Shown: positions 3,983 through 21,908 of the stretch, piece after piece
How positions within the stretch are numbered: the stretch's first letter is position 1
Layout: each line of letters begins with the position of its first letter
Source of the DNA: Candidatus Hermodarchaeota archaeon
GTDB lineage: Archaea > Asgardarchaeota > Heimdallarchaeia > Hodarchaeales > Hodarchaeaceae
Length of the DNA: 32,000 nucleotides
Direction: 5' to 3'
Assembly: GCA_048886185.1 (NCBI GenBank)
Contig: JBHLKY010000005.1
Location: forward strand, 30,001-62,000
The notes under the pieces: generated by a model
What the model was told of the DNA's origin: nothing
Databases searched by the model: none
The model's input: only the letters and a program-made list of their open reading frames with translations
Translations under genes and position numbers: made by a program

Positions 3983-6373
3983 ATGAAAGGATATGATTGG
4001 GAGTATTTTAGAAAACAAATGGAACAGTCCTCTCTTGAATCTCTAAATCTAGAACCTTTTTTTAGGCTGTGTATTAGCTATTTGTTTTTATTTCCTTATT
4101 TATTTCAGGAAACATTCAAGAATAAGCTAGGTTTCTTAGATCATATAAATCATGAGTCCAAATTTTGGGAAATTGAATGGATTAAAGATTTTTACCATTT
4201 TCAATTAAGTCCTAATACATTTGACTATTTGCTTCAAGAAGATTGGTGGTGGAATTCTTTTTTTAATCTTGGTATAATTAATACTCCTATTGATTCTTAT
4301 GCCTTATCCAATCTTCATATGGCATTGAGAAAAATAAATAAGCAAAAAACTTTAGGAATGTTCTTCACCCCTATAAATCAAGTTAAATTAATATGTAATA
4401 ACGCTTTATTTTTCTTTCTACGTAATAGAAGAATATTGAAAGATGAAACTCTTTATAATCTTATATTTCAGGAAGAATATCCATTAAGTCTGCCAAAGAA
4501 GGTAGGAGATCAGCTTCTTAAAGTTCTAAAAACAATCAAGGTTCTAGATCCTTGTTGTGGAACTGGATTTTTTCTTTTGGAGATGAGTCGTCTTATTTTG
4601 TCACTGATATTTAAGAATCCTTTTTTTGATAGAATGTCTGAAGAAAAAGAAAGAAAAATTATTGAGGACGTTTTTTTAAATCTTAATGGATATGATATTG
4701 ACTCTGATAATGTTAGACTTACCAAAATCATACTTACAAAACAATATTTCATGATGGTTCAAAATCAGAAGCCTGATGAAAAGGAATTCAGAAATTTTCT
4801 TCATTTAAATCTTCAAGTGTTTGAAAAGGATTTCCTCATTGAAAATGATACCTACCAAAAGAGTTTTGATCTTATCATCGGAAATCCTCCTTATATTCGA
4901 CATCATGAATTAGATTCTAACTATTTAAAGAAGTTGGAAGAAAAAACTATTTTTTTCAATGAAATAAAAGCCCTTTTTCACCAGAGATCTTTTACGTGGG
5001 ATAGAAAAGCAGATTTATATATTTACTTCTGGTTGAAAGCAATTATTCTTTTAGATGAGGGGAGTATATTGTCGTTTGTACTTTCTCGTGCATGGCTTTC
5101 CGCTCGTTATGCTCTCCCTTTAAAAACAGTTTTGCTGACTAATTTCCATTTAGATCTTATTATAGAGTTACCTTTTGAGGTATGGAAGAGTGTAGAAATC
5201 CGAACTCACATTATCATTGGTCATAAAACCACCAACAGAATTAGTCATAAGGTAAATTTCCTTGTATGGAAAGAATCAGTTAAATCACTACTTAATTTTC
5301 AGGCATTTATTCTAAACACTCGTAATATGAATACTTTGTTTCTGTCTAGCGATTCTAAACTAGTAATCAAGTCACAGGAGAATAATTACTATCGTTTCAG
5401 CCAAATATCAGATATATCACCACTATTAAAGAATTCGGAAACTTTATTCCCTTTTTTAAGATTAGATTATTTAGAAATGTCTTCTTTCTTATTAAATTTA
5501 CTCATCACCAAGAGAACCCGCTTTTGTTTATTAAAAGATCTTGGAAAATTAGAAATGGGATCAACCACAGGATTTAATCAATTTTTTTATCTAACAAATG
5601 AAACTATAAAAAAACTAGGAATTCCAAAGAAGAATTTGCATCCAATGACAAAATCACCTAAAGAATGGTCCACAATTTTCGTATTAAATGAGAAAAAGAT
5701 GAAATACATTCTCCATATTCCTAGGAAGTTGTCAAAAAACAGTCCTAAGGAATTAAAAAAATACATTTATGATCTGCAAGATATAATATTAAAACGCCCA
5801 TTCTTTAGAAATAAAACGAAGGAAAATTGGTATCAAGTTCCTCTAATTCAACCAGACCTATTACTCCCCAATATGATTTTTAAGAGATCATTTGTAGCAT
5901 ATAATCATAATAAGCTCCACATTGACAAGCAGTGGATTGGTTTCTGGACAAATGATAAGAGTTGGATTTTTCCTCTCTTGGCTTTCTTGAATTCAAGCTT
6001 GGGAGTATTACTCAGAGAAGTACAGGGAACTAAAACTCTTGGTCTTGGATCATTAAAACTATCTTTACAAGAGTGTCAAAGCTTACTTGTTCTAGATCCT
6101 AGAATGATTTCTCCAGAACTAATAGTTCTATTCCAAAATCTTGTAAAAAAACTCGGAGAATTACAAATAGATACAATTCAACAAGGAAAAGAGACTGAAT
6201 TTACAAAAGTTCAGAAGCAATTAGATCATTTAATTCTTGTGAAGTGTTTGGAAATGGACTCCAGTGAAATTAAAAAAATTCGAGAAATACTAAATTTTGA
6301 GATATGTTGGCGATTGGCAAGAGAAAAAAAAATCATAAAGGACAGAAGATTACAGAGATTGTATGACGATTAA
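3983..6373 (+). CDS. N6-adenine DNA methyltransferase (gamma class, Eco57I/TaqI-like) with C-terminal target-recognition region; no nuclease domain seen (MTase-1)
   Basis: Motif X GMFFTP, motif I VLDPCCGTGFF, motif IV DLIIGNPPY, ADLYIYF, and TRD-type GSTTGFNQFF and FLNSS motifs. Confidence 0.85.
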   Translation: MKGYDWEYFRKQMEQSSLESLNLEPFFRLCISYLFLFPYLFQETFKNKLGFLDHINHESKFWEIEWIKDFYHFQLSPNTFDYLLQEDWWWNSFFNLGIINTPIDSYALSNLHMALRKINKQKTLGMFFTPINQVKLICNNALFFFLRNRRILKDETLYNLIFQEEYPLSLPKKVGDQLLKVLKTIKVLDPCCGTGFFLLEMSRLILSLIFKNPFFDRMSEEKERKIIEDVFLNLNGYDIDSDNVRLTKIILTKQYFMMVQNQKPDEKEFRNFLHLNLQVFEKDFLIENDTYQKSFDLIIGNPPYIRHHELDSNYLKKLEEKTIFFNEIKALFHQRSFTWDRKADLYIYFWLKAIILLDEGSILSFVLSRAWLSARYALPLKTVLLTNFHLDLIIELPFEVWKSVEIRTHIIIGHKTTNRISHKVNFLVWKESVKSLLNFQAFILNTRNMNTLFLSSDSKLVIKSQENNYYRFSQISDISPLLKNSETLFPFLRLDYLEMSSFLLNLLITKRTRFCLLKDLGKLEMGSTTGFNQFFYLTNETIKKLGIPKKNLHPMTKSPKEWSTIFVLNEKKMKYILHIPRKLSKNSPKELKKYIYDLQDIILKRPFFRNKTKENWYQVPLIQPDLLLPNMIFKRSFVAYNHNKLHIDKQWIGFWTNDKSWIFPLLAFLNSSLGVLLREVQGTKTLGLGSLKLSLQECQSLLVLDPRMISPELIVLFQNLVKKLGELQIDTIQQGKETEFTKVQKQLDHLILVKCLEMDSSEIKKIREILNFEICWRLAREKKIIKDRRLQRLYDD

Positions 6374-8518: not shown

Positions 8519-11128
8519 TTAAAGGTTTTTAAAAATACTTCTTACTATTTCATGATTAAATATAATTTTTTTATATTGATGGATTTCTTCATCTTTTCTC
8601 AAGCGATTAGTGACTTGACGTATAGTTTTCCAATTCGTTTCAATTACTTGCGTTAAACGTTCCTGATCGGTTTTGGAATCTTGAAAAAGAATTAAATCGA
8701 TAAATGAATCCATATTAATCGGTTTTAAATAACTACCCATGCAAACAGCTAAATTTGACGAAATTCCTAAGATTTCTGGGAAGTATAAATCATATACTAG
8801 GTAATTAGCTAGATTGAGAAGATAATCCATTCTTTTATCCAGAGACAACCTCCCACATAAATGAGCTTGATTAATAAACACGAGGTAACTGGCAAGAACC
8901 GAAAATTCCTTTTCAAAATCGTGGGGGTATTTAATGGGGATAAGTTTTGTATAATATTTATGGAGATAAACAGTTAAGTGACTGAAATTGAGAATGTATC
9001 TCTTTAAAAGATAATTAATAAGATCAGAGTTTAAAAGAATTAACATCGCAAAGAAATTGTATGACTTGTCTATCTCTAATATTGAAACATTGGTGCCAGG
9101 TATAATTTTTTCAGGTTTATAGGCTACTCTTAATCGATTACCAATGGCGGTATTTACAAGACGAGGTTCCCGAAAATAAGTTGTAAATCTCTCGTTTGTA
9201 GGATGAGGTTTTGACCATTGAAAATATTTAGGATTTAATGCATATTTTGAGACGCTTCGTCCTGAATGTAGATAGCAAATAGGATATTTTTGAGAATATT
9301 CTGAATTCAGATCTTTTTTTAATATTCTGTGATCAATACCATAGTCTCCCTTTACTACATTATCAACAACTAATCCTTGACTAACTGCTTTGTCCCACAA
9401 GTTGTTGTAGTAAATCATAAATCGCTTGTATTTCTTAAAAATACTAATATGAACTGTTGGTTCTGCATATATTTTTGGACGAGGATTGATAGTAACATTA
9501 TAATCAGGTTCAATTCGTTTATTTAAGTAAATTGAGCACATTTCTAGTGTAACATCAGTAAAAGCTGCTGATTCATCATCAATTCTCCAGATCACTGTCC
9601 TCTCTAACATGAACTTACGTAAAGATTCAAATTCTTCAACTCTAAGTATAGAAAATGGTACGATTAAACCTAATGTTCCGTTTTGTTTCAAAAGAGTAAT
9701 AGATCTTTCAATAAAAGCGCTAGCAGCATTTAAGCTGTATTTTTTTGGATTTTTACCAGAACATGATTTATAGACCAATTTTAATATCGATTTTTCCGTT
9801 TTAGATAAAATTGACCTTCCGTATGGAGGATTTCCTATTACAATATCAAATCCTCCATTAAGTAACACTTCTGGAAAAGCAATACCCCAATGGAACGAAA
9901 TGACTGAATCGATATCATTTCTTTTTAATTGTAAAGAATGTGCAGAACTATGTAATTGATTTTTAATCCAATTTTTGTAGAAAGTATCTACAAGAGAAAG
10001 AAGTGCTTTCTCGGCTTTTTGGATCGATTTTTGATGTACATTAGAGGGTAAAAGGTTTTTATTCGCCTCTTTTATATGAAAACTTGTTACAAGCCAATTT
10101 TCTGCTTCACCTTTATTAATGAATCTCTGATTCCCATAATGTGATTCTAAGTATGTGCTAATTCTTGAAATAGTTGTGGTATAATCTAGGGGATATTGAA
10201 TCCTTTCTTTACAAAGTCCAAATAGACTATTCCCAGTGTAGATATTCCGAAATAACCAAGAAGGAAGTAAACTAAGGTCAATAGGGGTTAAATTGAGAAT
10301 CCAAAATAATAATCTAAATTTAGCCACTGTTAAGCTACTTGGTGAAAGATCAATTCCATAAATACAGCTTTCAACAATTTTTTGAGGAAAAGAGTTTCCT
10401 TTAATCTGTTTTTTAAATAAGCGGTTAAAAAGACTTTCAGCAGTATAAACAAGAAAAGAACCCGTTCCACAACTCGTATCTAGGATTTTTACTTCCAGAG
10501 TTTTATTATTAAGATAATCAGGGTTTTTAGAAAGATGATAGTTGAGACAGCTGTCAGTTATTGCACGTATAATACGCCAAGGAGTAAAGTAAACGCCCTT
10601 ATGTTTACGTTTGGAAACTTTAGGAGTTAATCGAAAGAGATTTTCAAAATCATTGAGAATGTTTTCATAAAAATATGATAAGAATTCTGGGGAAATTTTG
10701 TTTTCATTTTTTGAAATGCTGGAAAAATCTTCGACTAGAGTCCATTCTTGCGCTTGAAGTAATTTCAAAAGACTATCCCAATCTTCTGATGATAATGAAT
10801 CCTTGAATTGAATCTCTTGATAGGATAATCTTAGTAAATCATTAAGGATTGGAGGCTTACCTTCTGGAAAAATGGTTAAATTATGGGAATCTTCTTGAAA
10901 AAGGATTTCATGAATAATTATTCTAATATTTCGTGGTTCAAATTCAAGGATTGGATTTTCATCGTTCCAATTATACCAAGGTTTGAGAATAATTAACCCT
11001 AAAAGCTTAATAAATAGATTTAAGGCCATTTCATGAATTTCATGAGGTGATAATCCATAGGATTTTCCTCTCTGAAGAAATTTCTCATAATATGGCTTTA
11101 AATCAGAATATAATCGGAACATAATCAA
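8519..11128 (-). CDS. N6-adenine DNA methyltransferase, Eco57I-like (type IIG-like architecture lacking a recognisable nuclease) (MTase-2)
   Basis: PEFLSYFYE, motif X GVYFTP, motif I ILDTSCGTGSFL, IYGIDL, FHWGIAFPEV...GGFDIVIGNPPY, FIERSITLLK, and TaqI_C-like LLNSDLINY. Confidence 0.85.
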   Translation of the reverse strand: MIMFRLYSDLKPYYEKFLQRGKSYGLSPHEIHEMALNLFIKLLGLIILKPWYNWNDENPILEFEPRNIRIIIHEILFQEDSHNLTIFPEGKPPILNDLLRLSYQEIQFKDSLSSEDWDSLLKLLQAQEWTLVEDFSSISKNENKISPEFLSYFYENILNDFENLFRLTPKVSKRKHKGVYFTPWRIIRAITDSCLNYHLSKNPDYLNNKTLEVKILDTSCGTGSFLVYTAESLFNRLFKKQIKGNSFPQKIVESCIYGIDLSPSSLTVAKFRLLFWILNLTPIDLSLLPSWLFRNIYTGNSLFGLCKERIQYPLDYTTTISRISTYLESHYGNQRFINKGEAENWLVTSFHIKEANKNLLPSNVHQKSIQKAEKALLSLVDTFYKNWIKNQLHSSAHSLQLKRNDIDSVISFHWGIAFPEVLLNGGFDIVIGNPPYGRSILSKTEKSILKLVYKSCSGKNPKKYSLNAASAFIERSITLLKQNGTLGLIVPFSILRVEEFESLRKFMLERTVIWRIDDESAAFTDVTLEMCSIYLNKRIEPDYNVTINPRPKIYAEPTVHISIFKKYKRFMIYYNNLWDKAVSQGLVVDNVVKGDYGIDHRILKKDLNSEYSQKYPICYLHSGRSVSKYALNPKYFQWSKPHPTNERFTTYFREPRLVNTAIGNRLRVAYKPEKIIPGTNVSILEIDKSYNFFAMLILLNSDLINYLLKRYILNFSHLTVYLHKYYTKLIPIKYPHDFEKEFSVLASYLVFINQAHLCGRLSLDKRMDYLLNLANYLVYDLYFPEILGISSNLAVCMGSYLKPINMDSFIDLILFQDSKTDQERLTQVIETNWKTIRQVTNRLRKDEEIHQYKKIIFNHEIVRSIFKNL

Positions 11129-11275: not shown

Positions 11276-13237
11276 ATGTTGGCGAAGGATCGATTTCCTA
11301 CTGAAATAATCGATGTTTGTTTACTATTATCAAACCATGGATTTCAAGCGTTTGTAGTTGGTGGATCTATACGAGACATCATCCAAGGAAATTTTTTACC
11401 ACAGGATTGGGATATCGCAACTGATGCAAAACCTTCTGAAGTAATAGGAGTCTTTAATAAGAGATTTCGTGTTATTCCAACTGGAATTAAGCATGGCACG
11501 GTTACCATTCTCTTTAATGGTCTATCAATAGAAATAACAACATTTAGAGTTGAGGGAGACTATATCGATGGTCGAAGACCACTTGAGGTTCATTTTGTTA
11601 AAAAAATTACTGACGATTTATCTCGTCGCGACCTCACAATCAATGCTATAGCATATGATCCCATTCATGACATTCTTTCAGATCCTTTCAACGGGATTAA
11701 AGACATTGAGGCAGGAATCATCAGGATGGTCGGGGATCCGAATAAACGCCTGAAAGAGGATGGATTACGCCTGATTCGAATTTTTCGATTTGTTTCGCAG
11801 TTAGGATTTAATATTGACCCCCCAACTTCAATTGCAGTTACTAATAATTTAACTATTTTTAATAAAGTTGCTAAGGAACGTATACACACAGAGTTTCAAA
11901 AATTATTACAGGGAGCTTTTTTTCAGAAATCTATTCTCTTATTAGAAGACTGTGGTCTGTTATATCACCTCATACCAGAATTTAATGATGCAGTTTTATC
12001 GAAAAATGTTTCTGAAATTAATTTGAACAGAATTGAGCTGACCTTGAAAATCGTGTCAAGCCTCCCTAGTTCTTCTTCTCAAAATCTTCGTTTTGCAACA
12101 TTGATTCACCAATTGTCTGCAATCCCATCAAAATCATCAATGATATTTCCTCCTTTCCAAGAAAATTTCATTCAAAAAATTCTAAAAAGCATGAAATGTT
12201 CTAATAAACAGATAACAACTGTATCTCACATTTTATCAATCCATTTATTGCGTCTTCCATATTCTATGCAAGAAGAAGATGATACAAAAGACTATTTAAT
12301 AAGAAAATTTCAGTATAAGATTCAACCTGAATATTTAACTGATTATTTAAATTTCTATTATGCGAAAGAGAACATTTTACGAAAAGAAAAACTCCTCACA
12401 GAACTTCTGAAAGACGATATAACGAAAAGAGCGAGAACCCAACAACCTATTGAATTGAAAGATCTTGCGCTAAATGGTGATGATATAATTCAGTTTTTTC
12501 TAATAAATAAAAAATACTCATCACAGCGAGAATTTATAGGTTTATGTCTTCAAATTATCCGGGAACGAGTGGAACTAAACCCCCAGATCAATCTAAAAGG
12601 TAAACTTTTTACCATTCTTGAAAATCTAAATAAAATCTTAACCCAGTGTACAACACAAATTACACGACGAGTTCATATTGTCTCAACGGATCATATCAGA
12701 AAGCTTTATTGTAATGGCGTCCCTAAATATGTTCAATGGGAAAATGAACACACTTATTTACTATCTAAATGGCTTATTCGTTGTCAACTTCGTAAGGATA
12801 CAAAATCGATAGTAATATTTGATGGAACTAATTTTAATTTTCCAACACATCCTACTCATCGAGAAAAACTATGTATTAGATTTAAACAGTACAATCCCAT
12901 ATTTATAAACACTAGTGCCTCTGAAGAAGAAGTTAAACTAAATTTAGAAACTAGAAATAAGGAGCCATCTTCTATAAAAAAGAGTGATGCTGATCTTAGT
13001 ATATTCAGACGTTATCAGGATTTACTTAGAACTTATCCAAAAGCTCTTAACATACTGGACGGTTATGACTTCATACAGCTATCAACACGTCACCCAGAAT
13101 TCTTATCCCTGATTCAAGATATCACAAAAAGAATTCTCAAAAATAAGAATCGTTTGGTAGTTATGAGTGGTAATGTCCTTACTGGAAAGACTTATACAGC
13201 TTATATTCTTCAAAAATATTTAGAGGGAAACAAATAA
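11276..13237 (+). CDS. cca: Class II tRNA nucleotidyltransferase (CCA-adding enzyme / poly(A) polymerase family) fused to a C-terminal P-loop kinase-like domain
   Basis: VVGGSIRD...DWDIAT, GIKHGTV, EITTFRVEGDYIDGRRP (flexible loop), DLSRRDLTINA, DPFNG and EDGLRLIR (EDxxR). The C-terminal ~190 aa carry STDHIR, IFDGTN, SDAD and GNVLTGKT. Confidence 0.88.
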   Translation: MLAKDRFPTEIIDVCLLLSNHGFQAFVVGGSIRDIIQGNFLPQDWDIATDAKPSEVIGVFNKRFRVIPTGIKHGTVTILFNGLSIEITTFRVEGDYIDGRRPLEVHFVKKITDDLSRRDLTINAIAYDPIHDILSDPFNGIKDIEAGIIRMVGDPNKRLKEDGLRLIRIFRFVSQLGFNIDPPTSIAVTNNLTIFNKVAKERIHTEFQKLLQGAFFQKSILLLEDCGLLYHLIPEFNDAVLSKNVSEINLNRIELTLKIVSSLPSSSSQNLRFATLIHQLSAIPSKSSMIFPPFQENFIQKILKSMKCSNKQITTVSHILSIHLLRLPYSMQEEDDTKDYLIRKFQYKIQPEYLTDYLNFYYAKENILRKEKLLTELLKDDITKRARTQQPIELKDLALNGDDIIQFFLINKKYSSQREFIGLCLQIIRERVELNPQINLKGKLFTILENLNKILTQCTTQITRRVHIVSTDHIRKLYCNGVPKYVQWENEHTYLLSKWLIRCQLRKDTKSIVIFDGTNFNFPTHPTHREKLCIRFKQYNPIFINTSASEEEVKLNLETRNKEPSSIKKSDADLSIFRRYQDLLRTYPKALNILDGYDFIQLSTRHPEFLSLIQDITKRILKNKNRLVVMSGNVLTGKTYTAYILQKYLEGNK

Positions 13238-13288: not shown

Positions 13289-14998
13289 ATGAAAAAAACT
13301 AAAGGCCAGTTCTTTACCCCAGGATTCTTGGTAAAGGCAATCTTAGATAAAGTTACTACTTTTTTTCCAAAAGAGTATGAATCAAGACAGATAACGATTT
13401 TGGATCCAGCTATAGGAAAAGGTGTATTCTTATCAACCTTAATTCCTATAATTTCATCAAAGTTTCACTCGGTTAAACTTTATGGCTTAGATATAGATTC
13501 CTCTATAATCAAAATTGCCAATAAGAATTTGCTTCCCTTAGCTAAAGAATTTAATTATGAAATGGAAGTAAAGCTTGGAGATTTTTTCCTTGAATTTCCT
13601 TTGGACTTTCCAAAAGAGTTTGATGTAATTATTGGGAATCCACCTCACAACGCAAAATATTCTCATTCTGAATGGGAGGAAATAAGAGAAAATTGTTTTT
13701 TTGGTCAAATTTCTAATGTACGGTCTGAAAGTTCTGTTTTCTTCACTTTAAAATCATTAAATCTTCTTAAGCCATGTGGTCTCCTCTGTTTTTTGTTACC
13801 TAAACCAATTATTTATTCAAAAAGATGGGTTGTCTTCAGGGAAATACTATTAACCGATTATACACTTATTGGAGTCTTTGATCTCGGAAATCAATTTACT
13901 GGTCAGCTACAGGAGCAATGTGCATTAATTATCCAAAAAAGGACTCCAATCTCTATAGGGCATCAATATGTAACAGGAATTTGGAACTCCAACCTAAAAA
14001 AATTCCTAAAAGTTGACAGAATCTTTAATAAAGATGCAATAGCTTTAGATAATCTTTTGGTGGGAGTGAGCTCTGCTGAGATGGAGCTGATTCGGCGTTT
14101 TCATAGGAAAAATTATATTGATCTAGATGTTAACGCTTTTCGGGGACTAAGCAGCCGTTATCGAAGCATAGAAGGAGAAATTCCTTTGATCGAAAAAAGT
14201 AATTTTGCTTCTGGTTTTTTATTTCCGACACAGCACTATATAAGTCCAAATACTCCCCAAAAGCTTCTACTTAGACAAAAAGTCCCAAAAATTATTGCAC
14301 AACGAATAATCTCATATCGCACAAAACCAAAATTTAGATTAGATGTAAAAACCTGGTTTGATTCGAAAGGAGCTATTCTCACACATGAAACTGTGATCAA
14401 TATTATTCCAAATTATTCCCAACAAATAATCTCATATTGTGCTATTGCTGGTTTACTAGAGTCATCATTCGTTGAATGGTGGCTTAAATCTACAGTCTAT
14501 ACTCAAGAATTTGTAACAAGTAAAGATTTTGATAAAGCATACATAAATTCAATAAGAATACCGAAAATTGTAGGCCCAATAAATAAGAATTACAGGTTGA
14601 AGCTTTCAAATTTACTTCAAAAGAAGCAGTACGAAGAGATACTGAATGAAGTAAAAAACCAATCGAATATTGATAAATTTTTTACTTTAGGAGAGATATA
14701 TGAATGCTATCAAACTACAGGTCATAAACTAAAGAAGAAGTTATTAGAATCGATCCAGGCTGAAAAGCCTTTCAACGAGAAATTTTCGGAATTTAGAAAG
14801 TGTAAATTATATTATAATCGTCTATTAAAAAGATTTTATTCTCCTTCTGAGGAATCTCATCTTCAAGATCAATGTGAGGAGATATTGGATTTATTCTCAG
14901 AACTTAAAATATTGAAGGAGAATATGAATGAAATTGTTATTTCACTTTATGAAATCAATTCTGAAGAGCGAGAACTTATCAAAAAAGATTTAATCTGA
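13289..14998 (+). CDS. N6-adenine DNA methyltransferase, M.TaqI-like, with NPPH catalytic motif (MTase-3)
   Basis: GQFFTP, ILDPAIGKGVF, LYGLDID, FDVIIGNPPH, LLKPCGLLCFLLP, and C-terminal PKIIAQRI and LLES TRD-type motifs. Confidence 0.8.
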   Translation: MKKTKGQFFTPGFLVKAILDKVTTFFPKEYESRQITILDPAIGKGVFLSTLIPIISSKFHSVKLYGLDIDSSIIKIANKNLLPLAKEFNYEMEVKLGDFFLEFPLDFPKEFDVIIGNPPHNAKYSHSEWEEIRENCFFGQISNVRSESSVFFTLKSLNLLKPCGLLCFLLPKPIIYSKRWVVFREILLTDYTLIGVFDLGNQFTGQLQEQCALIIQKRTPISIGHQYVTGIWNSNLKKFLKVDRIFNKDAIALDNLLVGVSSAEMELIRRFHRKNYIDLDVNAFRGLSSRYRSIEGEIPLIEKSNFASGFLFPTQHYISPNTPQKLLLRQKVPKIIAQRIISYRTKPKFRLDVKTWFDSKGAILTHETVINIIPNYSQQIISYCAIAGLLESSFVEWWLKSTVYTQEFVTSKDFDKAYINSIRIPKIVGPINKNYRLKLSNLLQKKQYEEILNEVKNQSNIDKFFTLGEIYECYQTTGHKLKKKLLESIQAEKPFNEKFSEFRKCKLYYNRLLKRFYSPSEESHLQDQCEEILDLFSELKILKENMNEIVISLYEINSEERELIKKDLI

Positions 14999-15062
14999 AT
15001 TTATATATGAAATGATATCTAACTTCTACATTTATTTCATTGAAGTAGGTGGAATATTAAAT

Positions 15063-15977
15063 ATGTTGCAAGAAAAAGAGGGTGTATCCATAGATTTACC
15101 TGAAGAATGGGGAGGAATTATTCCTCTTAATGTCTTTATTGAGGAAGCAAATAAGTTAGTTTCTAAAGCTGAAGAATCTGGTATTCATTTCCGATTAGTT
15201 GGAGGATTAGCAATTCGTCTTCATGTACAATCCCATGGATTGGAGGATTTATATAAAAGATTAAAGCGGTTAGGTGATAAAGCAGAAATCACAGATATTG
15301 ATGGTGCAATTTCTTACAAACACATGAAAAAAATGGATAAATTCATGAATAATATGGGTTATGCTAAGAGACAACCAACCTTATCCACAGCCGCTAGTCA
15401 GCGAAGAATCTATATTCACCCGAAGAATTGGTGGTTTGTAGATTGTTTTTATGGAAAAATAAAATTCAATCATGACATTGATTTAGATCACAAACGTTTG
15501 GGATTGGATTCCCCCACTCTTCCTTTAGCAGAACTACTTCTGGGAAAAACTCAGATAGTATTTATGAACTATAAAGACGTTGCTGACTCTATAATGTTAA
15601 TACTAGCTCATAAGATTAGTTATGATGACAGCCCAGAGACAATAAACATTAAACATATAGGTGAAAATTATTTTAAAAAGGGAGGATATGCATGGGGTTT
15701 CTATCACACAGTAACGACGAATCTTGTTAATATTAAAAATGTTTTACCAGAATTTACAGAGCTTTCAGATGAACAAAGAGAAGATGTCAGCGTAAAAGTT
15801 GACGAAATGATCAAATATTTCGATGAAGTCCCCAAAAACCGTGCTTGGCGAGCGAGGGCAAAAATTGGTCCTTCCAAAAAATGGTATCGTCCAGTAGAAA
15901 CATCAAAAACAGTTGGAGAGTTTGGCATATTCAGTGGGAAACATTTACTTGACAAACCAACACAGAAAGATCATTAA
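15063..15977 (+). CDS. Uncharacterised Pol-beta-superfamily nucleotidyltransferase (NTase-A)
   Basis: LVGGLAIRLH...ITDID (GG + DxD signature), third acidic residue in FVDCF, and LPLAELLLGKTQI...KDVAD helical motif. The ORF track opens at 15012; ATG 15063 is preferred (AGGTGG upstream, TTTATATA at 15000-15007). Confidence 0.7.
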   Translation: MLQEKEGVSIDLPEEWGGIIPLNVFIEEANKLVSKAEESGIHFRLVGGLAIRLHVQSHGLEDLYKRLKRLGDKAEITDIDGAISYKHMKKMDKFMNNMGYAKRQPTLSTAASQRRIYIHPKNWWFVDCFYGKIKFNHDIDLDHKRLGLDSPTLPLAELLLGKTQIVFMNYKDVADSIMLILAHKISYDDSPETINIKHIGENYFKKGGYAWGFYHTVTTNLVNIKNVLPEFTELSDEQREDVSVKVDEMIKYFDEVPKNRAWRARAKIGPSKKWYRPVETSKTVGEFGIFSGKHLLDKPTQKDH

Positions 15978-16022
15978 TCTTGAGTGTGAGACCCTAATTT
16001 ACGATCATTGCACTTTTATAAT

Positions 16023-16907
16023 TCAAATATGCCGAGCATCTACTCTTTCAGGTTTTTCCATCTTGACTTTGGACAAGAAACTTGGTTTTTTATCTTCCAT
16101 TGGCTTGATACAATCAATTAATTTTGCCAGTTTAGATTTTCCTTCCACATTACAACATACATCTCCAGAATAGTTAAGTGTTTCTCGGAAATTACGAAGT
16201 ATTGTTGAAGGAAATTCCAATTTTGTTTTTGCTAGGAGTTCAAATATTTTTATGCCTATTGAAAACTCAACAGCTGGATCCAGCTCAGGAGTATCAAAAA
16301 TGGAATCTTCTATTTCAACGTGGCAATTTGAGTTGAATATACTCGAGATATCTTGGATATCTTTCAGATCAAAGTCATCAGGATGGATGGCATTTGCTTT
16401 TAATGCAATCTGGAGGCCAGGAGGACATATTAAAGTCTCAGAGTAACTTGAGGGAAGTTCATCAAACTTAAAAGTCCAACACATTCTGATGCCATCCACA
16501 AAGACTTCTACCTTTTGAAAATCGGCCTCTTCAATATTGTTCATTCGTCCATGTTCAAGTTCTTCTATTTCTGAAGACGAAAGTTCACGATTTGGTTTGT
16601 AATACTCTCTCCTAGGTGTTCTAGACATATTTTGCATCATATTAAACGGTCTATTGGGGTAGAAACCATTTTGCTTAAGAATGGTTTTAATTGGTTTATC
16701 TGCTTTCTTAGGGATAAAAAACTCAAGATCACTCATTTTTCTGTAATCTAACCTTCCTCCAATCAAATGATAGATCGCACCACCCCCCCATAAAAAACAA
16801 GGAATTGATTCGTCTTTACAACTTTGTAGAATTTTATAGCCACTTCTCATCAAGGTATCATTGTGTACTTTATTAGAATTGTCCATGATTTTGCCTTCAT
16901 TGTACAT
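16023..16907 (-). CDS. Uncharacterised nucleotidyltransferase-fold protein (NTase-B), distant paralogue of 15063..15977
   Basis: LWGGGAIYH...MSDLEF, KVEVFVD and ALKANA...KDIQDI align in order with the NTase-A motifs. Confidence 0.6.
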   Translation of the reverse strand: MYNEGKIMDNSNKVHNDTLMRSGYKILQSCKDESIPCFLWGGGAIYHLIGGRLDYRKMSDLEFFIPKKADKPIKTILKQNGFYPNRPFNMMQNMSRTPRREYYKPNRELSSSEIEELEHGRMNNIEEADFQKVEVFVDGIRMCWTFKFDELPSSYSETLICPPGLQIALKANAIHPDDFDLKDIQDISSIFNSNCHVEIEDSIFDTPELDPAVEFSIGIKIFELLAKTKLEFPSTILRNFRETLNYSGDVCCNVEGKSKLAKLIDCIKPMEDKKPSFLSKVKMEKPERVDARHI

Positions 16908-16998
16908 AGATTTTGTGCTAATTAACTATTTATAAGGTTTTTTTAAAATCCTAATTAAATATTATTTTGAAAACAATGATTCCAGATGAATGAATAAT

Positions 16999-18030
16999 TT
17001 AAGATTCGACCCTCTGCATCCGTTTTATTTTACCTTTATCCAATTCTACCAAGAATCCTTTTAAAATAGCTTCAGTATATTCGCTGCCAGGATTAAGACA
17101 ATAAGTTCTACCAATTTTCATACTCCCTGCTGACTCATGGATATGTCCAAATAAACCCAATAGAGGTTGATGCGTTTCTATTGCGTTTCTAACCGCCTTA
17201 CAGCCAACAGATCCTCTTAGTGGTTCTCCTCCACTATAACCGACATATGTTAAATCCTCATTTAAAAGAGGAGCTTCATCAATGATACTATCATAGGGAG
17301 GACAATGGAAACAAAAAACAGCATTCTCCATGGTATTTATCTGTGAAGTTAACTTTTCTATGTTAGCCTCTAATTGTTCTTCACCACATTCTCTATAAGT
17401 ATTCCAGGGAGTAGGATTTGTCCATCCATAACTTATCATCTCATGATTTTTATCAAGATCAACTTTTACTCCTTCACCAAAAATTACGCGAGGATCTTTC
17501 TGGATAATTTCGTCAATAGCAAATTTATCATCATTTCCAGGACAAATAATTATCTTTGTGCCCTCTGGTACACGTTTTGATCCATCGGGCATAATGTCGT
17601 CTATTTGGTCGATCCAAACCTGGAGGCCTTGTGCTTCCACTTCATCAAACAATTTATCAAGAGGACCTCCTTTAATCATCTTTTGATCTTCAGTAACTGA
17701 CTTGGGAGAAGATAATACAGCATCTTCCTCGGGCGTTAACCGATATGGATAACTACCTGCAAATCTCGCTCTTGTTTCAAAATCCTTGATTTCTTCTTCT
17801 GTTTTCATTATCACAGCTTGTTGATCTACACCATAAATCGAACCTTTCCATGTTCCGTCTGGCTGTTGGATAATTGGGACAATTCTCTTTCCTGTAATAT
17901 CTCCTCCCATAATTAAAATATCTGCTTGTAAATATTTAGCCGTATTCAGAAATTTTCTCCAAACAGCTTCAGAACCGTGTATATCTGTACAGAAAAATAG
18001 GGTCACCATTGATTTCACAACCTGATTCAT
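16999..18030 (-). CDS. Calcineurin-like metallophosphoesterase (Icc-related, GNDD variant)
   Basis: TDIHGS, MGGDITGK, PGNDD, FHCPPY, GHIHES and LNPGSEY. Confidence 0.9.
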   Translation of the reverse strand: MNQVVKSMVTLFFCTDIHGSEAVWRKFLNTAKYLQADILIMGGDITGKRIVPIIQQPDGTWKGSIYGVDQQAVIMKTEEEIKDFETRARFAGSYPYRLTPEEDAVLSSPKSVTEDQKMIKGGPLDKLFDEVEAQGLQVWIDQIDDIMPDGSKRVPEGTKIIICPGNDDKFAIDEIIQKDPRVIFGEGVKVDLDKNHEMISYGWTNPTPWNTYRECGEEQLEANIEKLTSQINTMENAVFCFHCPPYDSIIDEAPLLNEDLTYVGYSGGEPLRGSVGCKAVRNAIETHQPLLGLFGHIHESAGSMKIGRTYCLNPGSEYTEAILKGFLVELDKGKIKRMQRVES

Positions 18031-18600
18031 TGACTTAATTTGATTATTTTGTTATTGCCTTGATTTGGGTTTGCGAGACTATTGGAATATTAATTTTTCG
18101 AATTTGATTGTGCTAGAAATATAATATTTCATTTTGGAACTAGATATATTTTTCCTATTTCCATATTTTTACTGAGACATATACTAAGATTGGTGTTACT
18201 GGCAGGATGTAGTATGAAGTAACGGAAAATGAATTTTGAGCACTAAAAAGCTTAATTTTTATCTTTGAGTATTTCAAAACTAGTTCATAATGAATACATT
18301 GAATAGATTAATTTTTCAAGATAGGGGTTATAAAGTTGATTCTACTTACTTCATTCCAATCAATAAGGATGAAAAACTCAAAATTAAAGTTTAATTTTCA
18401 AAACTTAATATCATTTTTCTTCATTTAAAATATAAGCTGGGGAACCGTAACAAATCTCAGTTAAATTAGGGAATTAAAGTTTATTAAAACTTTAATTTAA
18501 CTGATTAGGTTAGAAATACATAATTCCATAAAAATACGAAATCCAATGACTTAAACAGCTTTTTATCATCAACAATAAGTCAGCCAAATCAAGAATTAAA

Positions 18601-18615
18601 GCGAAACTTTTATAA
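18601..18615 (+). promoter_or_regulatory. Candidate archaeal BRE/TATA promoter for the APC permease
   Basis: GCGAAAC-TTTTATAA matches the purine-rich BRE + TATA pattern and lies ~220 nt upstream of ATG 18837. Not verified; the sequence is AT-rich. Confidence 0.45.
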
Positions 18616-18836
18616 TCCCAATATTGGGGAGTAAATCTTTGTGCTAAATGCTTAGTAAATAGGTTAAAATTAATCTATCATAAGCAAAACACATATTGAA
18701 ACGGTGTCATTCGCGGTAGAAAAAGTGATTTCTTAAAGCGAATTGACAAAACAAAAACCAAATGGACATAAAAAAAATAACCTAAAAATCTAAAAGAAAA
18801 AAACAAAATTTGTATCAGATTTCAAAGGTGACATAA

Positions 18837-20702
18837 ATGAGTGAAAGTAAAACTTATGTCCGAGATGCAACTGGGTTAGTGCGAGAAATTGGTGTCATCA
18901 CAGCCACTATTTTCATTCTAAGTAATGTTATTGGTGGTGGTTGGCAGAAGAAAGTCTACCAAGCAGCCGGCGCAGCCCCCCTCAAACCCGAAGATTATCT
19001 ATTACCAATCGAACCTATAGTTATTGCTTTTCTAATAACAGGAGCAGCAGCAATATGCACTGTTTTCGTTTTTGCAGTGATGGCTACAGCCATGCCAAGA
19101 GCTGGTGGAGGATATGTTTACATATCTCGAACTATTAGTCCAGGAATCGGATTTGTTTGTGCATGGGCAGAGTTCATGGGCATAGCATTATCCTATGGGA
19201 TTATCGCAGTTGCAGTCGTAGAGTTTATAGGACTCTTCTTACCTAAAGGTATAACTGGAGATTTCGGTGAATCTTTGCAGGATTTCATTGATACACCTAT
19301 TATTGCAGGAACAAAAACAGCATTCTTTGATCCAGTACCATTAATGTTCTGGGGAATTATATTTATCTTCGCTTTTGGTGCGCTAGCATACTTTGGAGCA
19401 TCAATGACTGGTAAAGTTCTACATATTATGTTCTGGATCCCCGCAGTTATTACTTTGACGATCTATCTTTTCTTAATTCTTGGAGCTCTAGATTCAGCTA
19501 CCATGATAAATGGTATCACAGAATTTAGTGGATATACACCGCAACAATGGATAGAAGAAGCAGTAGCCCAAGGAATTGAAGGCAATGCAGCAGCAGATTA
19601 TGTTTCTGCTGTCAATGAGTCAGTAATGGCCGCATACTGGGCATGGATTGGTTATGCAGCAATTTCTTTTGCAGCAGGCGAAGTAAAAGAAGCCAACAGA
19701 TCATTACCTATTTCTCATCTGGCAGCAGGTTTCATCATCCTCGGTGTCTATGTTACAGTTAGTACATTCATGGCAATGGCTGCCTCAGTTTCATTTGACG
19801 GAAATACAACAGGATGGACATTCTTCCAGGCACAAGCTTACTTAGGTTATGGTGCTGGTTCGGCTACTACTGAATTTCCCAATCTCGCATGGATGCCTTT
19901 TGTAGCCATGATGTCTTCAACGGGCTTTAATCTCTTTAATATGGGTGGTCTTCTAAACATTGCCTTTGCTGTAGCAGCTGTCTTATGGCTTGCCAACGAC
20001 TTACCTCCATTCGTAACTACCTCGTCTCGTATCATCTTTGCCATGTCATTTGATAGAGCTCTTCCAGAGGTATTCGCTAAAGTCGATGAACGCTGGCACT
20101 CGCCTACTTACGCGATTCTCTTTGTCTGTTTTGTCGCTATTCTTGGTGGTTTTGGTGAAGCAGACTTCTTTGGAGTAAATGGTTTCGGTGGCGGTGAAAT
20201 CCCAATTGTGTCAGACATCTTTAATCCTGCAGGCGCAGTAGAAGGAACAGACTTATTAGACGCAGTATTCTTCACCACAGCGTGTATCTCTGCCATCGTT
20301 CTGCCTAGAAAGCTAAAGGACGTCTATGAACGAAGCGGATGGCGTCCGAAGATCGGTAGCAGAGAAGCCGTAGTTGTGATGGGTATCGTTGCATTGATCC
20401 TAAACATCTACATTGATCTACTCATTCTAGGGCCTGCAAGTGCTGGTGTCCTTAAACCCATAGAAGGGCTAACAGATATATCACCATTCCTCGGGTTCTT
20501 CCCACCGTTGATCCCTGATTTGGATGTAGGAGGCGGATTAATTCCCGACTTCGGTGATCTTATCAATACGATTAACTGGTGGTTCTGGTGGTATATTCTG
20601 CTGATCGTTATTGGCGCGATCATATATATCATCATGAAAAGCTACTACAGCAAACGTGGAGTAGACTTTTCAACGATCTACGCATCTATTCCCCCCGAAT
20701 AA
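18837..20702 (+). CDS. APC superfamily (amino acid/polyamine/organocation) permease
   Basis: N-terminal YVRDATGLVRE, MPRAGGGYVYISR, SRIIFAMSFDRALP, many hydrophobic TM segments and a C-terminal IPPE, typical of archaeal APC permeases. AAGGTGA lies upstream of the ATG. Confidence 0.9.
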   Translation: MSESKTYVRDATGLVREIGVITATIFILSNVIGGGWQKKVYQAAGAAPLKPEDYLLPIEPIVIAFLITGAAAICTVFVFAVMATAMPRAGGGYVYISRTISPGIGFVCAWAEFMGIALSYGIIAVAVVEFIGLFLPKGITGDFGESLQDFIDTPIIAGTKTAFFDPVPLMFWGIIFIFAFGALAYFGASMTGKVLHIMFWIPAVITLTIYLFLILGALDSATMINGITEFSGYTPQQWIEEAVAQGIEGNAAADYVSAVNESVMAAYWAWIGYAAISFAAGEVKEANRSLPISHLAAGFIILGVYVTVSTFMAMAASVSFDGNTTGWTFFQAQAYLGYGAGSATTEFPNLAWMPFVAMMSSTGFNLFNMGGLLNIAFAVAAVLWLANDLPPFVTTSSRIIFAMSFDRALPEVFAKVDERWHSPTYAILFVCFVAILGGFGEADFFGVNGFGGGEIPIVSDIFNPAGAVEGTDLLDAVFFTTACISAIVLPRKLKDVYERSGWRPKIGSREAVVVMGIVALILNIYIDLLILGPASAGVLKPIEGLTDISPFLGFFPPLIPDLDVGGGLIPDFGDLINTINWWFWWYILLIVIGAIIYIIMKSYYSKRGVDFSTIYASIPPE

Positions 20703-20723
20703 GATCTTACTCCCTTCTCCCCC

Positions 20724-20732
20724 TTTTTTTTT
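20724..20732 (+). terminator. Oligo-T tract, candidate archaeal intrinsic terminator of the APC permease
   Basis: T9 run preceded by a C-rich pyrimidine stretch, ~20 nt after the stop codon. Confidence 0.45.
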
Positions 20733-20795
20733 ATATTATTTATTTTTCCCATACTTCTTATAAAAGGGTAAAAAAATTAGGGAACCCGAAATCCT

Positions 20796-21377
20796 GTGAC
20801 ATCCCCAGAATTATCCATGAAAGAAAAATACCTTCAATATATAGAAAAGTGCTTATTCTATAAAGGAGGAAGATGGATTGCCAATTTCGATATTGCGATT
20901 AGGGATTTCAATATTAACAGAGTAACAAAGGATAAAAGTTATATTGAACATGCGAAAGATTTTGCTGCTCTTGTTTATGGAGGTGTGAAGGGTAAGGGAT
21001 TTATTTTATCAAGAGCTTTTGCGTTTTTAGCGTCTCCAACTTATGTTGTTGCTTGTGCTGCTATAGATCTCCAAAGGGCTTCTAATGCAAAATGGTCTAC
21101 AATTGTTGATTGGATAAGACAGGTCAGAAACGTTATGGATCTAATGGAGTTTGAATGGGCATGGATAGTTTTTTTTGGAGAAGATAGTCTTCCTGACAAA
21201 GTAAAAAATCATTTTGAAAGATTTAACCAAAGAGAAATCGGACTCGTTTACGCTGATCTTAAGGGTAATCAAGTGATTAATTCAGATGGATTCATAGCGC
21301 GACGCGGAGCAAAACTGTTTCACCCTAAAAATTTAGAAGAACATCCTTTTCGCTTGAAATTTTGGAAAAAGAATTAA
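20796..21377 (+). CDS. Hypothetical soluble alpha/beta protein (193 aa)
   Basis: Long ORF with protein-like composition; TTATAAAA ~30 nt upstream; GTG 20796 or ATG 20817 start; stop directly abuts the next ORF. Confidence 0.75.
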   Translation: MTSPELSMKEKYLQYIEKCLFYKGGRWIANFDIAIRDFNINRVTKDKSYIEHAKDFAALVYGGVKGKGFILSRAFAFLASPTYVVACAAIDLQRASNAKWSTIVDWIRQVRNVMDLMEFEWAWIVFFGEDSLPDKVKNHFERFNQREIGLVYADLKGNQVINSDGFIARRGAKLFHPKNLEEHPFRLKFWKKN

Positions 21378-21908
21378 GTGAAATTTATGACCCAGACAGC
21401 AGATCTCAGCTCTACTATTGAAGAAGATCAAATAACCAGGTTTTCAACTAAAATAGGGATCTCGATTATTCTTTCATTCGGAATTATACTAGCAATAGTT
21501 TCCTTTGGTTTCGTCACTATTGGAATGTTCACTTCCCAAATCACTGGGGTTAGACTTATTCCAATAAATTTAATCACAATATCACTCGCCCTAGGTGGAG
21601 CAGTTCTTGGAACTTATTATTACCATACTAGATATGTACGTAGAGAATTAATCTTAAATCCTGATGGTTTTTGTTTAAAGATAGGGAAACGATCATATGA
21701 ATATTCTTGGAGTGATTTTTCCATTGTAGCACTATCAGTATCTACATCGCATTACGGAGCAAAAGGGTACGTTATTAAATTATTTAAGGAAGATTTAGAA
21801 GGAGATTATGTTGATTTACCAATTTATCACTTTTCAAAATCCTTAGATATTTTTTCTCTAAGACGAGAAATAGATGAAAAAGTCAAATTAGCGCAAAAAC
21901 CAGAATAA
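21378..21908 (+). CDS. Hypothetical membrane protein: two N-terminal TM helices followed by a possible PH-like beta domain
   Basis: Hydrophobic segments IGISIILSFGIILAIVSFGFVTIG and LITISLALGGAVLGTYYY, then ILNPDGFCL...YSWSDF resembling bacterial-PH-domain patterns. Confidence 0.65.
   Translation: MKFMTQTADLSSTIEEDQITRFSTKIGISIILSFGIILAIVSFGFVTIGMFTSQITGVRLIPINLITISLALGGAVLGTYYYHTRYVRRELILNPDGFCLKIGKRSYEYSWSDFSIVALSVSTSHYGAKGYVIKLFKEDLEGDYVDLPIYHFSKSLDIFSLRREIDEKVKLAQKPE

What the first reader, a model, noticed from the sequence alone, without database searches (positions are those of the whole stretch)
11276..12660. Bacterial/eukaryotic-type (class II) CCA-adding enzyme in an archaeal context
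Archaea canonically use class I CCA-adding enzymes, whereas class II (GGxxRD, DxD, RRD, EDxxR) is the bacterial and eukaryotic type. All class II motifs and the flexible loop (EGDYIDGRRP) are present, and the HD position is degenerate (LIHQL). The flanking genes carry Asgard signatures, so this may be an acquired or ancestral class II enzyme relevant to the origin of eukaryotic TRNT1/CCA1.
Basis: partly seen in the sequence, partly recalled or inferred. Interest (0 to 1): 0.6.

Follow-up and report, generated by a model that had tools for sequence, protein, structure and literature searches.

The report
Bacterial-type CCA enzyme in Asgard archaeon
This Hodarchaeales (Asgard) archaeon builds the CCA tail of its tRNAs with a bacterial-type (class II) enzyme instead of the usual archaeal one, which is real and inherited across its lineage, but a 2026 preprint already reports it and places this lineage's enzyme among bacteria rather than next to the eukaryotic enzyme.

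Summary
Window 11276-12660 encodes a complete class II CCA-adding enzyme core with motifs A-E, the flexible loop and a degenerate HD motif. The ORF runs on to 13237 (653 aa) and ends in a circularly permuted P-loop kinase domain.

- **Not an artefact.** The genome is 96% complete and has no class I enzyme. It has a second, shorter class II paralogue (392 aa, contig C12). Both paralogues recur in 16 relatives with the same coding, including two single-contig genomes. The gene order around the fusion is conserved and its GC content is ordinary.
- **Distribution.** Among 332 Asgard genomes, class II is confined to three Heimdallarchaeia families, with three stray hits elsewhere.
- **Affinity.** The closest solved relative is the Geobacillus CCA enzyme (175 bits, against 97 for human TRNT1). 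In my trees the fusion clade sits among bacterial sequences.
- **Prior work.** Preprint 10.64898/2026.05.29.728689 (Cassidy et al. 2026) already reports the replacement, the A/B paralogues, in vitro CCA addition, and a non-eukaryote-linked bacterial origin for Hodarchaeales.
- **Earlier scan notes.** The scan had already noted the fusion and the methyltransferase block on this and other genomes.
- **Added here.** Paralogue B has a degenerate flexible loop and motif E. A single origin of the Hodarchaeales-type copies is not excluded.

The parts
11276..12595 (+). Class II CCA-adding enzyme part of the 653-aa protein: head, neck, body and tail. It carries motifs A-E, the flexible loop, and a degenerate HD motif (HQ at residues 278-279).
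   Evidence: Pfam and NCBIfam matches. PDB 1MIV at E 1.5e-50. Invariant catalytic columns. Motif consensus by group. HD comparison.
12596..13237 (+). C-terminal circularly permuted P-loop kinase domain in the same ORF. The order is STDHIRK, then FDGTN, then SDAD, with the Walker A motif GNVLTGKT in the last 25 residues.
   Evidence: Conserved in 17 genomes, always in the same ORF. AlphaFold model pLDDT 86.5. VIA matches: PSTK 3A4L Z 8.3, Kti12 Z 7.7, Pnkp kinase Z 7.6, each starting after the target's P-loop. The native order gives two out-of-order BLASTP pieces against an ordinary AAA_33 kinase; the re-ordered domain gives one end-to-end alignment.
8519..11128 (-). 869-aa Eco57I/TaqI_C-type adenine methyltransferase-like gene, transcribed divergently from the CCA-kinase gene. 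It is a conserved neighbour; a functional link is not shown.
   Evidence: Pfam. Adjacent in 16 of 16 other fusion loci and in 5 of 5 long loci.
13289..14998 (+). 569-aa N6_Mtase/Eco57I-type methyltransferase-like gene, 52 nt downstream and co-oriented. It is a conserved neighbour; a functional link is not shown.
   Evidence: Pfam. Directly downstream in 5 of 5 long loci. Closest solved relative is M.BseCI.

Best explanation
The gene encodes the lineage's bacterial-derived class II tRNA nucleotidyltransferase. It adds or repairs the 3'-terminal CCA of tRNAs, using the protein's own EDxxR template and flexible loop to switch from CTP to ATP. It stands in for the archaeal class I enzyme, which this genome lacks. 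An ancestor of this Hodarchaeales-type group acquired the gene from a bacterium of the Bacillota-like CCA enzyme type, and it has been inherited vertically since.

In this group the enzyme has lost the HD phosphohydrolase motif of its bacterial relatives. It has gained a C-terminal, circularly permuted PSTK/Kti12/PNK-like kinase domain whose substrate is unknown, most plausibly a tRNA or RNA end.

A second, more diverged class II paralogue (392 aa) coexists with it. Catalytic activity is inferred from intact motifs and from the preprint's assay of a Hodarchaeales enzyme. It has not been shown for this protein.
For: - All class II catalytic motifs and the loop are intact and conserved.
- The Geobacillus CCA enzyme is the best PDB match, E 1.5e-50.
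- No PAP signature is present.
- No class I gene is found by the TIGR03671 profile or by tblastn with relatives' class I proteins in a 96%-complete genome.
- By my reading of the 3' flanks, most intron-less tRNA genes lack an encoded CCA.
- The fusion is found in 17 genomes of the group and the short paralogue in 17, including two single-contig genomes.
- Distribution across the class: f7 has class I only; f4 has both, with a diverged class I; f1 and f6 have class II only.
- Outside these three families only 3 of 332 Asgard genomes have a class II hit, and those three look like ordinary bacterial HD-type enzymes.
- GC is 33.0% against a genome mean of 35.2 +/- 2.4%.
- The preprint reports a Hodarchaeales CCA2 enzyme that adds CCA in vitro.
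Against: - No assay exists for this protein or for any fusion form. The preprint does not say which paralogue, or which subgroup, it tested. It never mentions the kinase domain, and it used only 500-nt flanks.
- The NCBIfam score is just under the equivalog cut-off (263 against 290).
- With two paralogues present, the housekeeping role could lie with the other copy or be split between them.
- The bacterial donor is unresolved. The backbone of the tree is weak. The only well-supported sisters (P0246/P0248, 100/100) are unnamed metagenome proteins.
Confidence: 0.8

Rival explanations
1. The two paralogues have split the job, as in Aquifex, Deinococcus and some Bacillus species. The short paralogue B would add CC. 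The fusion protein, which keeps the canonical flexible loop, would add the terminal A or carry out repair.
For: Paralogue B has lost the conserved Y.D.RRP of the flexible loop and the ER of motif E, but keeps GGxxRD, DxD, RRD and EDxxR. Both copies are kept in nearly all genomes of the group. The single-copy sister family f6 keeps the canonical loop.
Against: B's loop is only 1-2 residues shorter, not deleted as in the CC-adding enzymes I recall from the literature. From my own knowledge, loop sequences vary widely among active CCA enzymes. There is no biochemical evidence, and no motif is known that marks A-adding enzymes.
Confidence: 0.15
2. The fusion protein is not the housekeeping enzyme. 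It would be part of a dedicated nucleic-acid repair or modification module, together with the two flanking methyltransferase-like genes, while the short paralogue B does routine CCA addition.
For: The methyltransferase / CCA-kinase / methyltransferase block is conserved: 16 of 16 upstream and 5 of 5 downstream. It is absent next to the f6, B or f4 genes. The kinase resembles tRNA/RNA kinases.
Against: The fusion has the better conserved CCA core: 175 bits against 106 to 1MIV. B sits on a long stem branch. The methyltransferases resemble DNA adenine methyltransferases such as BseCI, TaqI and BsaXI. Synteny among relatives alone does not show a shared function.
Confidence: 0.1
3. The gene is bacterial contamination or a chimeric contig in a metagenome-assembled genome.
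For: The genome is a 75-contig assembly with 4.96% estimated contamination. The enzyme is of bacterial type.
Against: The same fusion with the same neighbours occurs in single-contig genomes of 4.94 Mb and 3.16 Mb and in 14 other relatives. The contig is 233.5 kb with ordinary GC. No bacterial protein is closer than about 38% full-length identity.
Confidence: 0.01

Closest known systems
Hodarchaeales ('Heim02') class II CCA-adding enzymes described in bioRxiv 10.64898/2026.05.29.728689 (Cassidy, Doktor, Betat, Morl, Prohaska, 2026)
   Same: The lineage, the class II-only repertoire, the presence of two paralogues (their A and B), the bacterial affinity, and the replacement of class I all match. 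My counts over 83 class genomes and 332 phylum genomes reproduce their pattern.
   Different: The preprint's text never mentions the C-terminal kinase domain, a fusion or a P-loop (0 occurrences). It extracted 500-nt flanks and trimmed the termini. It does not describe the methyltransferase neighbours or the loop and motif E decay of the short paralogue.
Geobacillus stearothermophilus CCA-adding enzyme (PDB 1MIV) and Planococcus halocryophilus CCA enzyme (6IBP)
   Same: These are the best solved relatives, at E 1.5e-50 and 2.1e-47 over residues 10-231. The alignment shown is clearly conserved across the head and neck, with the same motifs A-E and flexible loop.
   Different: The archaeal protein is 250 residues longer because of a permuted kinase domain, and it sits in an archaeal genome.
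Bacterial HD-domain CCA enzymes (E. coli-type 'multifunctional CCA addition/repair protein'; metagenomic Spirochaetota and Margulisbacteria relatives P0061-P0120)
   Same: These are the best full-length bacterial hits, at 34-38% identity over 68% of the query, with the same head/neck/body layout.
   Different: They carry an intact HD motif (H...HD...H...D, Pfam PF01966). The archaeal protein has HQ and has lost the other metal ligands.
Human TRNT1 (PDB 4X4W, 1OU5) and fungal cca1/cca2 (9NS2, 9NS4)
   Same: Class II head and neck are homologous (E 6.6e-27 to TRNT1).
   Different: They are clearly more distant than the Bacillota enzymes: 97 bits against 175. No specific affinity shows up. I could not place eukaryotes in a tree here.
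Archaeal class I CCA-adding enzyme (NCBIfam TIGR03671, e.g. Archaeoglobus fulgidus)
   Same: The cellular job is the same, and this is the enzyme replaced in this lineage.
   Different: It belongs to a different family and is absent from this genome. It is present in 12 of 12 genomes of family f7, and in diverged form in 28 of 31 of f4.

Membership tests
Class II tRNA nucleotidyltransferase (CCA-adding type) | Motif A: GGxxRD followed by DxD metal carboxylates | tested here: met
   GGSIRD at residues 29-34 and DWD at 44-46. G29, G30, R33, D44 and D46 are invariant in alignment A1. Conserved in all 17 fusion proteins.
Class II tRNA nucleotidyltransferase (CCA-adding type) | Motif B (RRD) and motif D (EDxxR nucleotide template) | tested here: met
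   R117, R118, D119 and E161, D162, R165 are invariant. Group consensus.
Class II tRNA nucleotidyltransferase (CCA-adding type) | Flexible loop between motifs A and B (needed for A addition) | tested here: met
   EGDYIDGRRP matches the bacterial consensus egdY.D.RRP at full length.
Class II tRNA nucleotidyltransferase (CCA-adding type) | Curated family score (NCBIfam PRK13299 equivalog cut-off) | tested here: not met
   263.1 bits against a cut-off of 290. It is the best model by a wide margin. The Pfam head and RNA-binding domains pass their cut-offs.
Class II tRNA nucleotidyltransferase (CCA-adding type) | Adds C, C and A to a tRNA 3' end without a template | not testable with these tools
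   The only evidence is the preprint's assay of one Hodarchaeales CCA2 enzyme. Which paralogue or architecture was tested is not stated.
Bacterial poly(A) polymerase (PcnB) | [quoted passage not shown] | tested here: not met
   Absent from all 51 archaeal class II proteins examined. The pcnB model scores 148 bits against a cut-off of 306.
HD-domain CCA addition/repair enzymes | Intact H...HD...H...D metal-binding motif | tested here: not met
   HD is replaced by HQ and the other ligands are lost across the fusion family. There is no PF01966 match.
CC-adding enzymes (considered for the short paralogue B) | Deletion of the flexible loop | tested here: inconclusive
   B's loop is degenerate in sequence but only 1-2 residues shorter. 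No named CC-adding reference sequence was available for comparison.
Eukaryote-linked CCA2 clade (eukaryotes + Heimdallarchaeaceae + Bacteroidota/Chlorobiota/Rhodothermota, per the preprint) | Groups with eukaryotic and Heimdallarchaeaceae enzymes in a tree | tested here: inconclusive
   In both trees the fusion clade is separate from the Heimdallarchaeaceae (f4) clade. The best PDB relatives also differ: 1MIV for the fusion, 3H37 for f4. No eukaryotic sequences could be included. The preprint places Hodarchaeales outside this clade.

The most novel reading that the evidence does not exclude
In this Hodarchaeales group the two class II paralogues are not redundant. The loop-degenerate short copy and the loop-bearing kinase fusion would divide tRNA 3'-end synthesis or repair between them. 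The fusion's permuted PSTK/Kti12-like kinase would act on the same tRNA, making an archaeal two-activity tRNA end-repair enzyme. It may work with the two methyltransferase genes that always flank it. The published preprint covers none of this.
Probability: 0.15. Interest if true: 0.65.

Novelty: already known. Interest (0 to 1): 0.35.

Why it matters
CCA addition is essential for translation. The split of class I in archaea against class II in bacteria and eukaryotes was long treated as a rule. Its breach in the archaeal group closest to eukaryotes bears on how bacterial parts entered the eukaryotic translation apparatus.

That point is now published as a preprint, and this lineage's enzyme is reported not to be the one linked to eukaryotes. 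What stays open and testable:
- why this group keeps two paralogues;
- what the fused, rearranged kinase phosphorylates;
- whether the preprint's sequences were truncated before the kinase domain.

Tried and rejected
- **Chimeric contig or contamination:** rejected, on the evidence of single-contig genomes, conserved synteny and GC.
- **Poly(A) polymerase:** rejected. There is no PAP signature and the pcnB score is low.
- **Hidden class I gene:** none found by profile or by tblastn.
- **Foldseek on the kinase model:** it gave only noise (best E 0.017), as expected for a permuted fold. VIA-align found the kinases.
- **treekit AU test on the 91-row set:** it did not finish in two 300-s runs. I replaced it with a 51-row IQ-TREE set.
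  - Against the fast free tree, no union was rejected: p 0.094, 0.18 and 0.28.
  - Against the thorough free tree, A+f6 (0.035) and A+B (0.041) are marginally rejected and A+B+f6 is not (0.114).
  - The constrained trees came from fast searches and leave out the unnamed sisters P0246/P0248, so I treat this as inconclusive.
- **Naming the nearest non-fusion relatives:** failed.
  - The listing of cluster members gave no names.
  - The metagenome scan returned a 57%-identical 709-aa CCA+HD protein on a contig with uninformative neighbours.
- **Eukaryotic sequences:** they could not be brought in by reference, so no tree with TRNT1/CCA1 was built.
- **Stray class II hits in other Asgard genomes (G229, G241, G283):** they resemble ordinary bacterial HD-type enzymes, not this family.

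Full report
**What is there.** The finding's coordinates lie inside one ORF, 11276..13237 on the + strand, 653 aa.
- Residues 25-150 and 177-238 match the Pfam head and RNA-binding domains of class II nucleotidyltransferases. Residues 298-409 weakly match the tRNA_NucTran2_2 body domain.
- The best NCBIfam model is the CCA tRNA nucleotidyltransferase equivalog PRK13299. It scores 263 bits, just under the 290 cut-off, and far above the poly(A) polymerase models.
- In an alignment with 16 relatives the catalytic columns are invariant: GG..R (29-33), D44/D46, R117 R118 D119, and E161 D162 R165.
- The flexible loop reads EGDYIDGRRP and matches the bacterial consensus.
- The HD motif of the nearest bacterial relatives (LlHD..KP, plus upstream H and downstream HE and RxAD) is reduced to L.HQ. 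The other ligands are lost in all 17 members of the family.

**The rest of the protein.** Residues from about 440 to 653 are strongly conserved (63% mean column identity), yet no Pfam family matches them.
- The motif order is STDHIRK, then FDGTN, then SDAD, with a Walker A motif (GNVLTGKT) in the last 25 residues.
- An AlphaFold model is confident (pLDDT 86.5).
- Foldseek, which depends on sequence order, finds nothing.
- VIA-align finds P-loop kinases: archaeal PSTK 3A4L (Z 8.3), Kti12 (7.7), Clostridium thermocellum Pnkp kinase (7.6) and T4 Pnk (7.0). Each alignment starts just after the target's P-loop.
- Against an ordinary 185-aa AAA_33 kinase from a relative, the native domain gives two out-of-order BLASTP pieces. 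A version re-ordered inside the script gives one end-to-end alignment.
- The domain is therefore a circularly permuted kinase. It occurs only as this fusion, in 17 genomes of the group.
- Earlier notes of this scan reached the same reading on this and other genomes. I count my checks as independent confirmation, not as a new discovery.

**Is it really archaeal, and is it the only CCA enzyme?**
- The assembly is 4.84 Mb in 75 contigs and 96% complete. It has no match to the archaeal class I model and no tblastn hit with class I proteins of related genomes.
- It has two class II genes: this one and a 392-aa paralogue on contig C12.
- By my reading of the 3' flanks, most intron-less tRNA genes are followed by T-rich sequence rather than CCA, so a CCA-adding activity is needed. 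ARAGORN handles the many intron-bearing tRNAs poorly, so this check is rough.
- The gene sits on a 233.5-kb contig. Its GC is 33.0% against 35.2 +/- 2.4% genome-wide.
- The same fusion, with the same neighbours, is found in 16 other genomes with the same coding. Two of them are single-contig genomes of 4.94 and 3.16 Mb that also carry the short paralogue. A chimeric contig or a binning error is excluded for practical purposes.

**Distribution.** Across the 83 genomes of the class:

| Family code | Class II | Class I |
|---|---|---|
| f1 (this group) | 18 of 21, mostly two copies (650-700 aa and 380-410 aa) | essentially none |
| f6 | 11 of 12, one copy of 440-580 aa without kinase | no real match |
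| f4 | 27 of 31, about 470-495 aa | 28 of 31, diverged and below cut-off |
| f7 | 0 of 12 | 12 of 12 |

- Family f4 includes the 3,326,783-bp genome that the preprint's table lists as Heimdallarchaeota archaeon PR6.
- Across 332 Asgard genomes of at least 80% completeness, only three genomes outside these families have a class II hit. Those three look like ordinary bacterial HD-type enzymes.
- Two genomes of the group (G050, G066) show neither class, and one (G048) shows class I only. I cannot explain these.

**Affinities.**
- The fusion's CCA part is closest to the Geobacillus (1MIV, 175 bits) and Planococcus (6IBP, 165 bits) enzymes. E. coli PAP scores 104 bits and human TRNT1 97.
- Family f6 gives the same picture. 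The short paralogue is more diverged: 106 bits to 1MIV and 87 to TRNT1.
- The f4 enzyme is of another subtype: the Thermotoga enzyme 3H37 is best, with Aquifex A-adding enzymes next.
- An exhaustive HMMER search shows a flat plateau of bacterial relatives at 205-240 bits. Named species representatives at 40-50% identity over the head and neck are Myxococcota, Bacillota, Spirochaetota and Patescibacteria.
- In a 91-row tree the fusion family, the short paralogue, f6 and f4 are each well-supported clades scattered among bacteria, on a weak backbone.
- In a thorough 51-row tree the fusion family is sister, at 100/100, to two unnamed 420-aa metagenome proteins. It lies near the short paralogue with weak support.
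- AU tests do not reject one clade for fusion + short paralogue + f6 (p 0.11-0.28). They reject the pairwise unions only marginally, and only against fast-searched constrained trees.
- One acquisition followed by duplication therefore remains possible, as do two transfers.

**What is already published.** Preprint 10.64898/2026.05.29.728689 (v1 May 2026, latest August 2026) reports the following:
- class II enzymes occur in Asgard, DPANN and Euryarchaeota;
- Hodarchaeales ('Heim02') are class II-only, with A and B paralogues in part of the group;
- Heimdallarchaeaceae carry both classes, with an inactive class I, and Gerdarchaeales carry class I only;
- a Hodarchaeales enzyme adds CCA in vitro;
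- the Hodarchaeales enzymes lie among later-diverging bacteria, outside a clade that joins eukaryotes, Heimdallarchaeaceae and Bacteroidota/Chlorobiota/Rhodothermota.

My genome counts reproduce that distribution independently, so the finding as written is already known. The preprint's text contains no mention of a kinase, a fusion or a P-loop. It predicted genes on tblastn loci with only 500-nt flanks and cut about 545 C-terminal alignment columns. Its Hodarchaeales sequences may therefore be truncated before the kinase domain. I could not check that.

**The eukaryote question.** I could not bring eukaryotic sequences into a tree. Pairwise scores give no consistent link. TRNT1 scores higher with this enzyme (97 bits) than with the Heimdallarchaeaceae one (40 bits), while fission-yeast cca1 and cca2 do the reverse. 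I rely on the preprint for the placement and mark my own test as inconclusive.

**What I add.**
- The short paralogue keeps motifs A, B and D but has lost the conserved Y.D.RRP of the flexible loop and the ER of motif E. Its loop is only 1-2 residues shorter. Subfunctionalisation is a fair hypothesis but not a supported one.
- The fusion gene is always preceded, divergently, by an 869-aa Eco57I/TaqI_C-type methyltransferase-like gene (16 of 16 loci). It is followed by a 569-aa N6_Mtase-type gene (5 of 5 long loci). The f6, short-paralogue and f4 genes have no such neighbours. An earlier scan note describes the same block on another genome.
- Both methyltransferases resemble DNA adenine methyltransferases. 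Nothing shows a functional link.

**Verdict.** This is a real, vertically inherited, bacterial-type CCA-adding enzyme that replaces the archaeal one in a Hodarchaeales-type lineage. The unpublished features are the kinase fusion, the paralogue decay and the methyltransferase block. They are more interesting than the class II call itself, but other reports of this scan have largely covered them.

Noticed in passing
window 8519-11128 (-), 13289-14998 (+); also 3983-6373 (+) and 27127-28824 (+): The window holds four Eco57I/N6_Mtase-type adenine methyltransferase-like genes, and no nuclease domain was detected in them. Two of them flank the CCA-kinase gene in every related genome examined: 16 of 16 upstream and 5 of 5 downstream.
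   Followed up: partly
G000 contig C12:5172-6350 (locus L002:808-1986, - strand): A second class II paralogue of 392 aa. Motifs A, B and D are intact, but the flexible loop is degenerate and motif E is lost. It sits on a long branch and is conserved in 17 genomes of the group. A NUDIX-like ORF lies about 500 nt upstream on the same strand.
   Followed up: partly
genomes G050, G066, G048 (same genus code as the window's genome): G050 (87% complete, 20 contigs) and G066 (93%) show neither a class I nor a class II CCA enzyme, by family profile or by protein search. G048 shows only a class I gene (361 bits).
   Followed up: partly
L154:4512-6641 (metagenome contig Ga0315288_10011930): A 709-aa class II CCA enzyme with a separate C-terminal HD domain (residues 508-588). 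It is 57% identical to the unnamed proteins that are sister to the archaeal fusion family. The organism is unknown.
   Followed up: partly
family f4 genomes (e.g. L054:1616-3004, G007): The Heimdallarchaeaceae class II enzyme is of a different subtype. Its best PDB relative is the Thermotoga maritima enzyme 3H37, followed by Aquifex A-adding enzymes. Human TRNT1 scores only 40 bits against it, less than against the Hodarchaeales enzyme.
   Followed up: partly
G058:C1:4170047-4170604 (L147:348-905, - strand) and similar ORFs in f1 and f4 genomes: Ordinary, non-permuted 185-200-aa AAA_33/KTI12-like kinases exist in the same lineages. They are the nearest sequence relatives of the permuted domain, at 28% identity once the domain is re-ordered.
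   Followed up: yes
window 15012-21908: The block downstream of the second methyltransferase holds a hypothetical gene, a nucleotidyltransferase, a metallophosphoesterase and an APC permease. It is syntenic in three closer relatives (G058, G056, G065) but was not seen in the loci fetched from the more distant G062 and G049.
   Followed up: no
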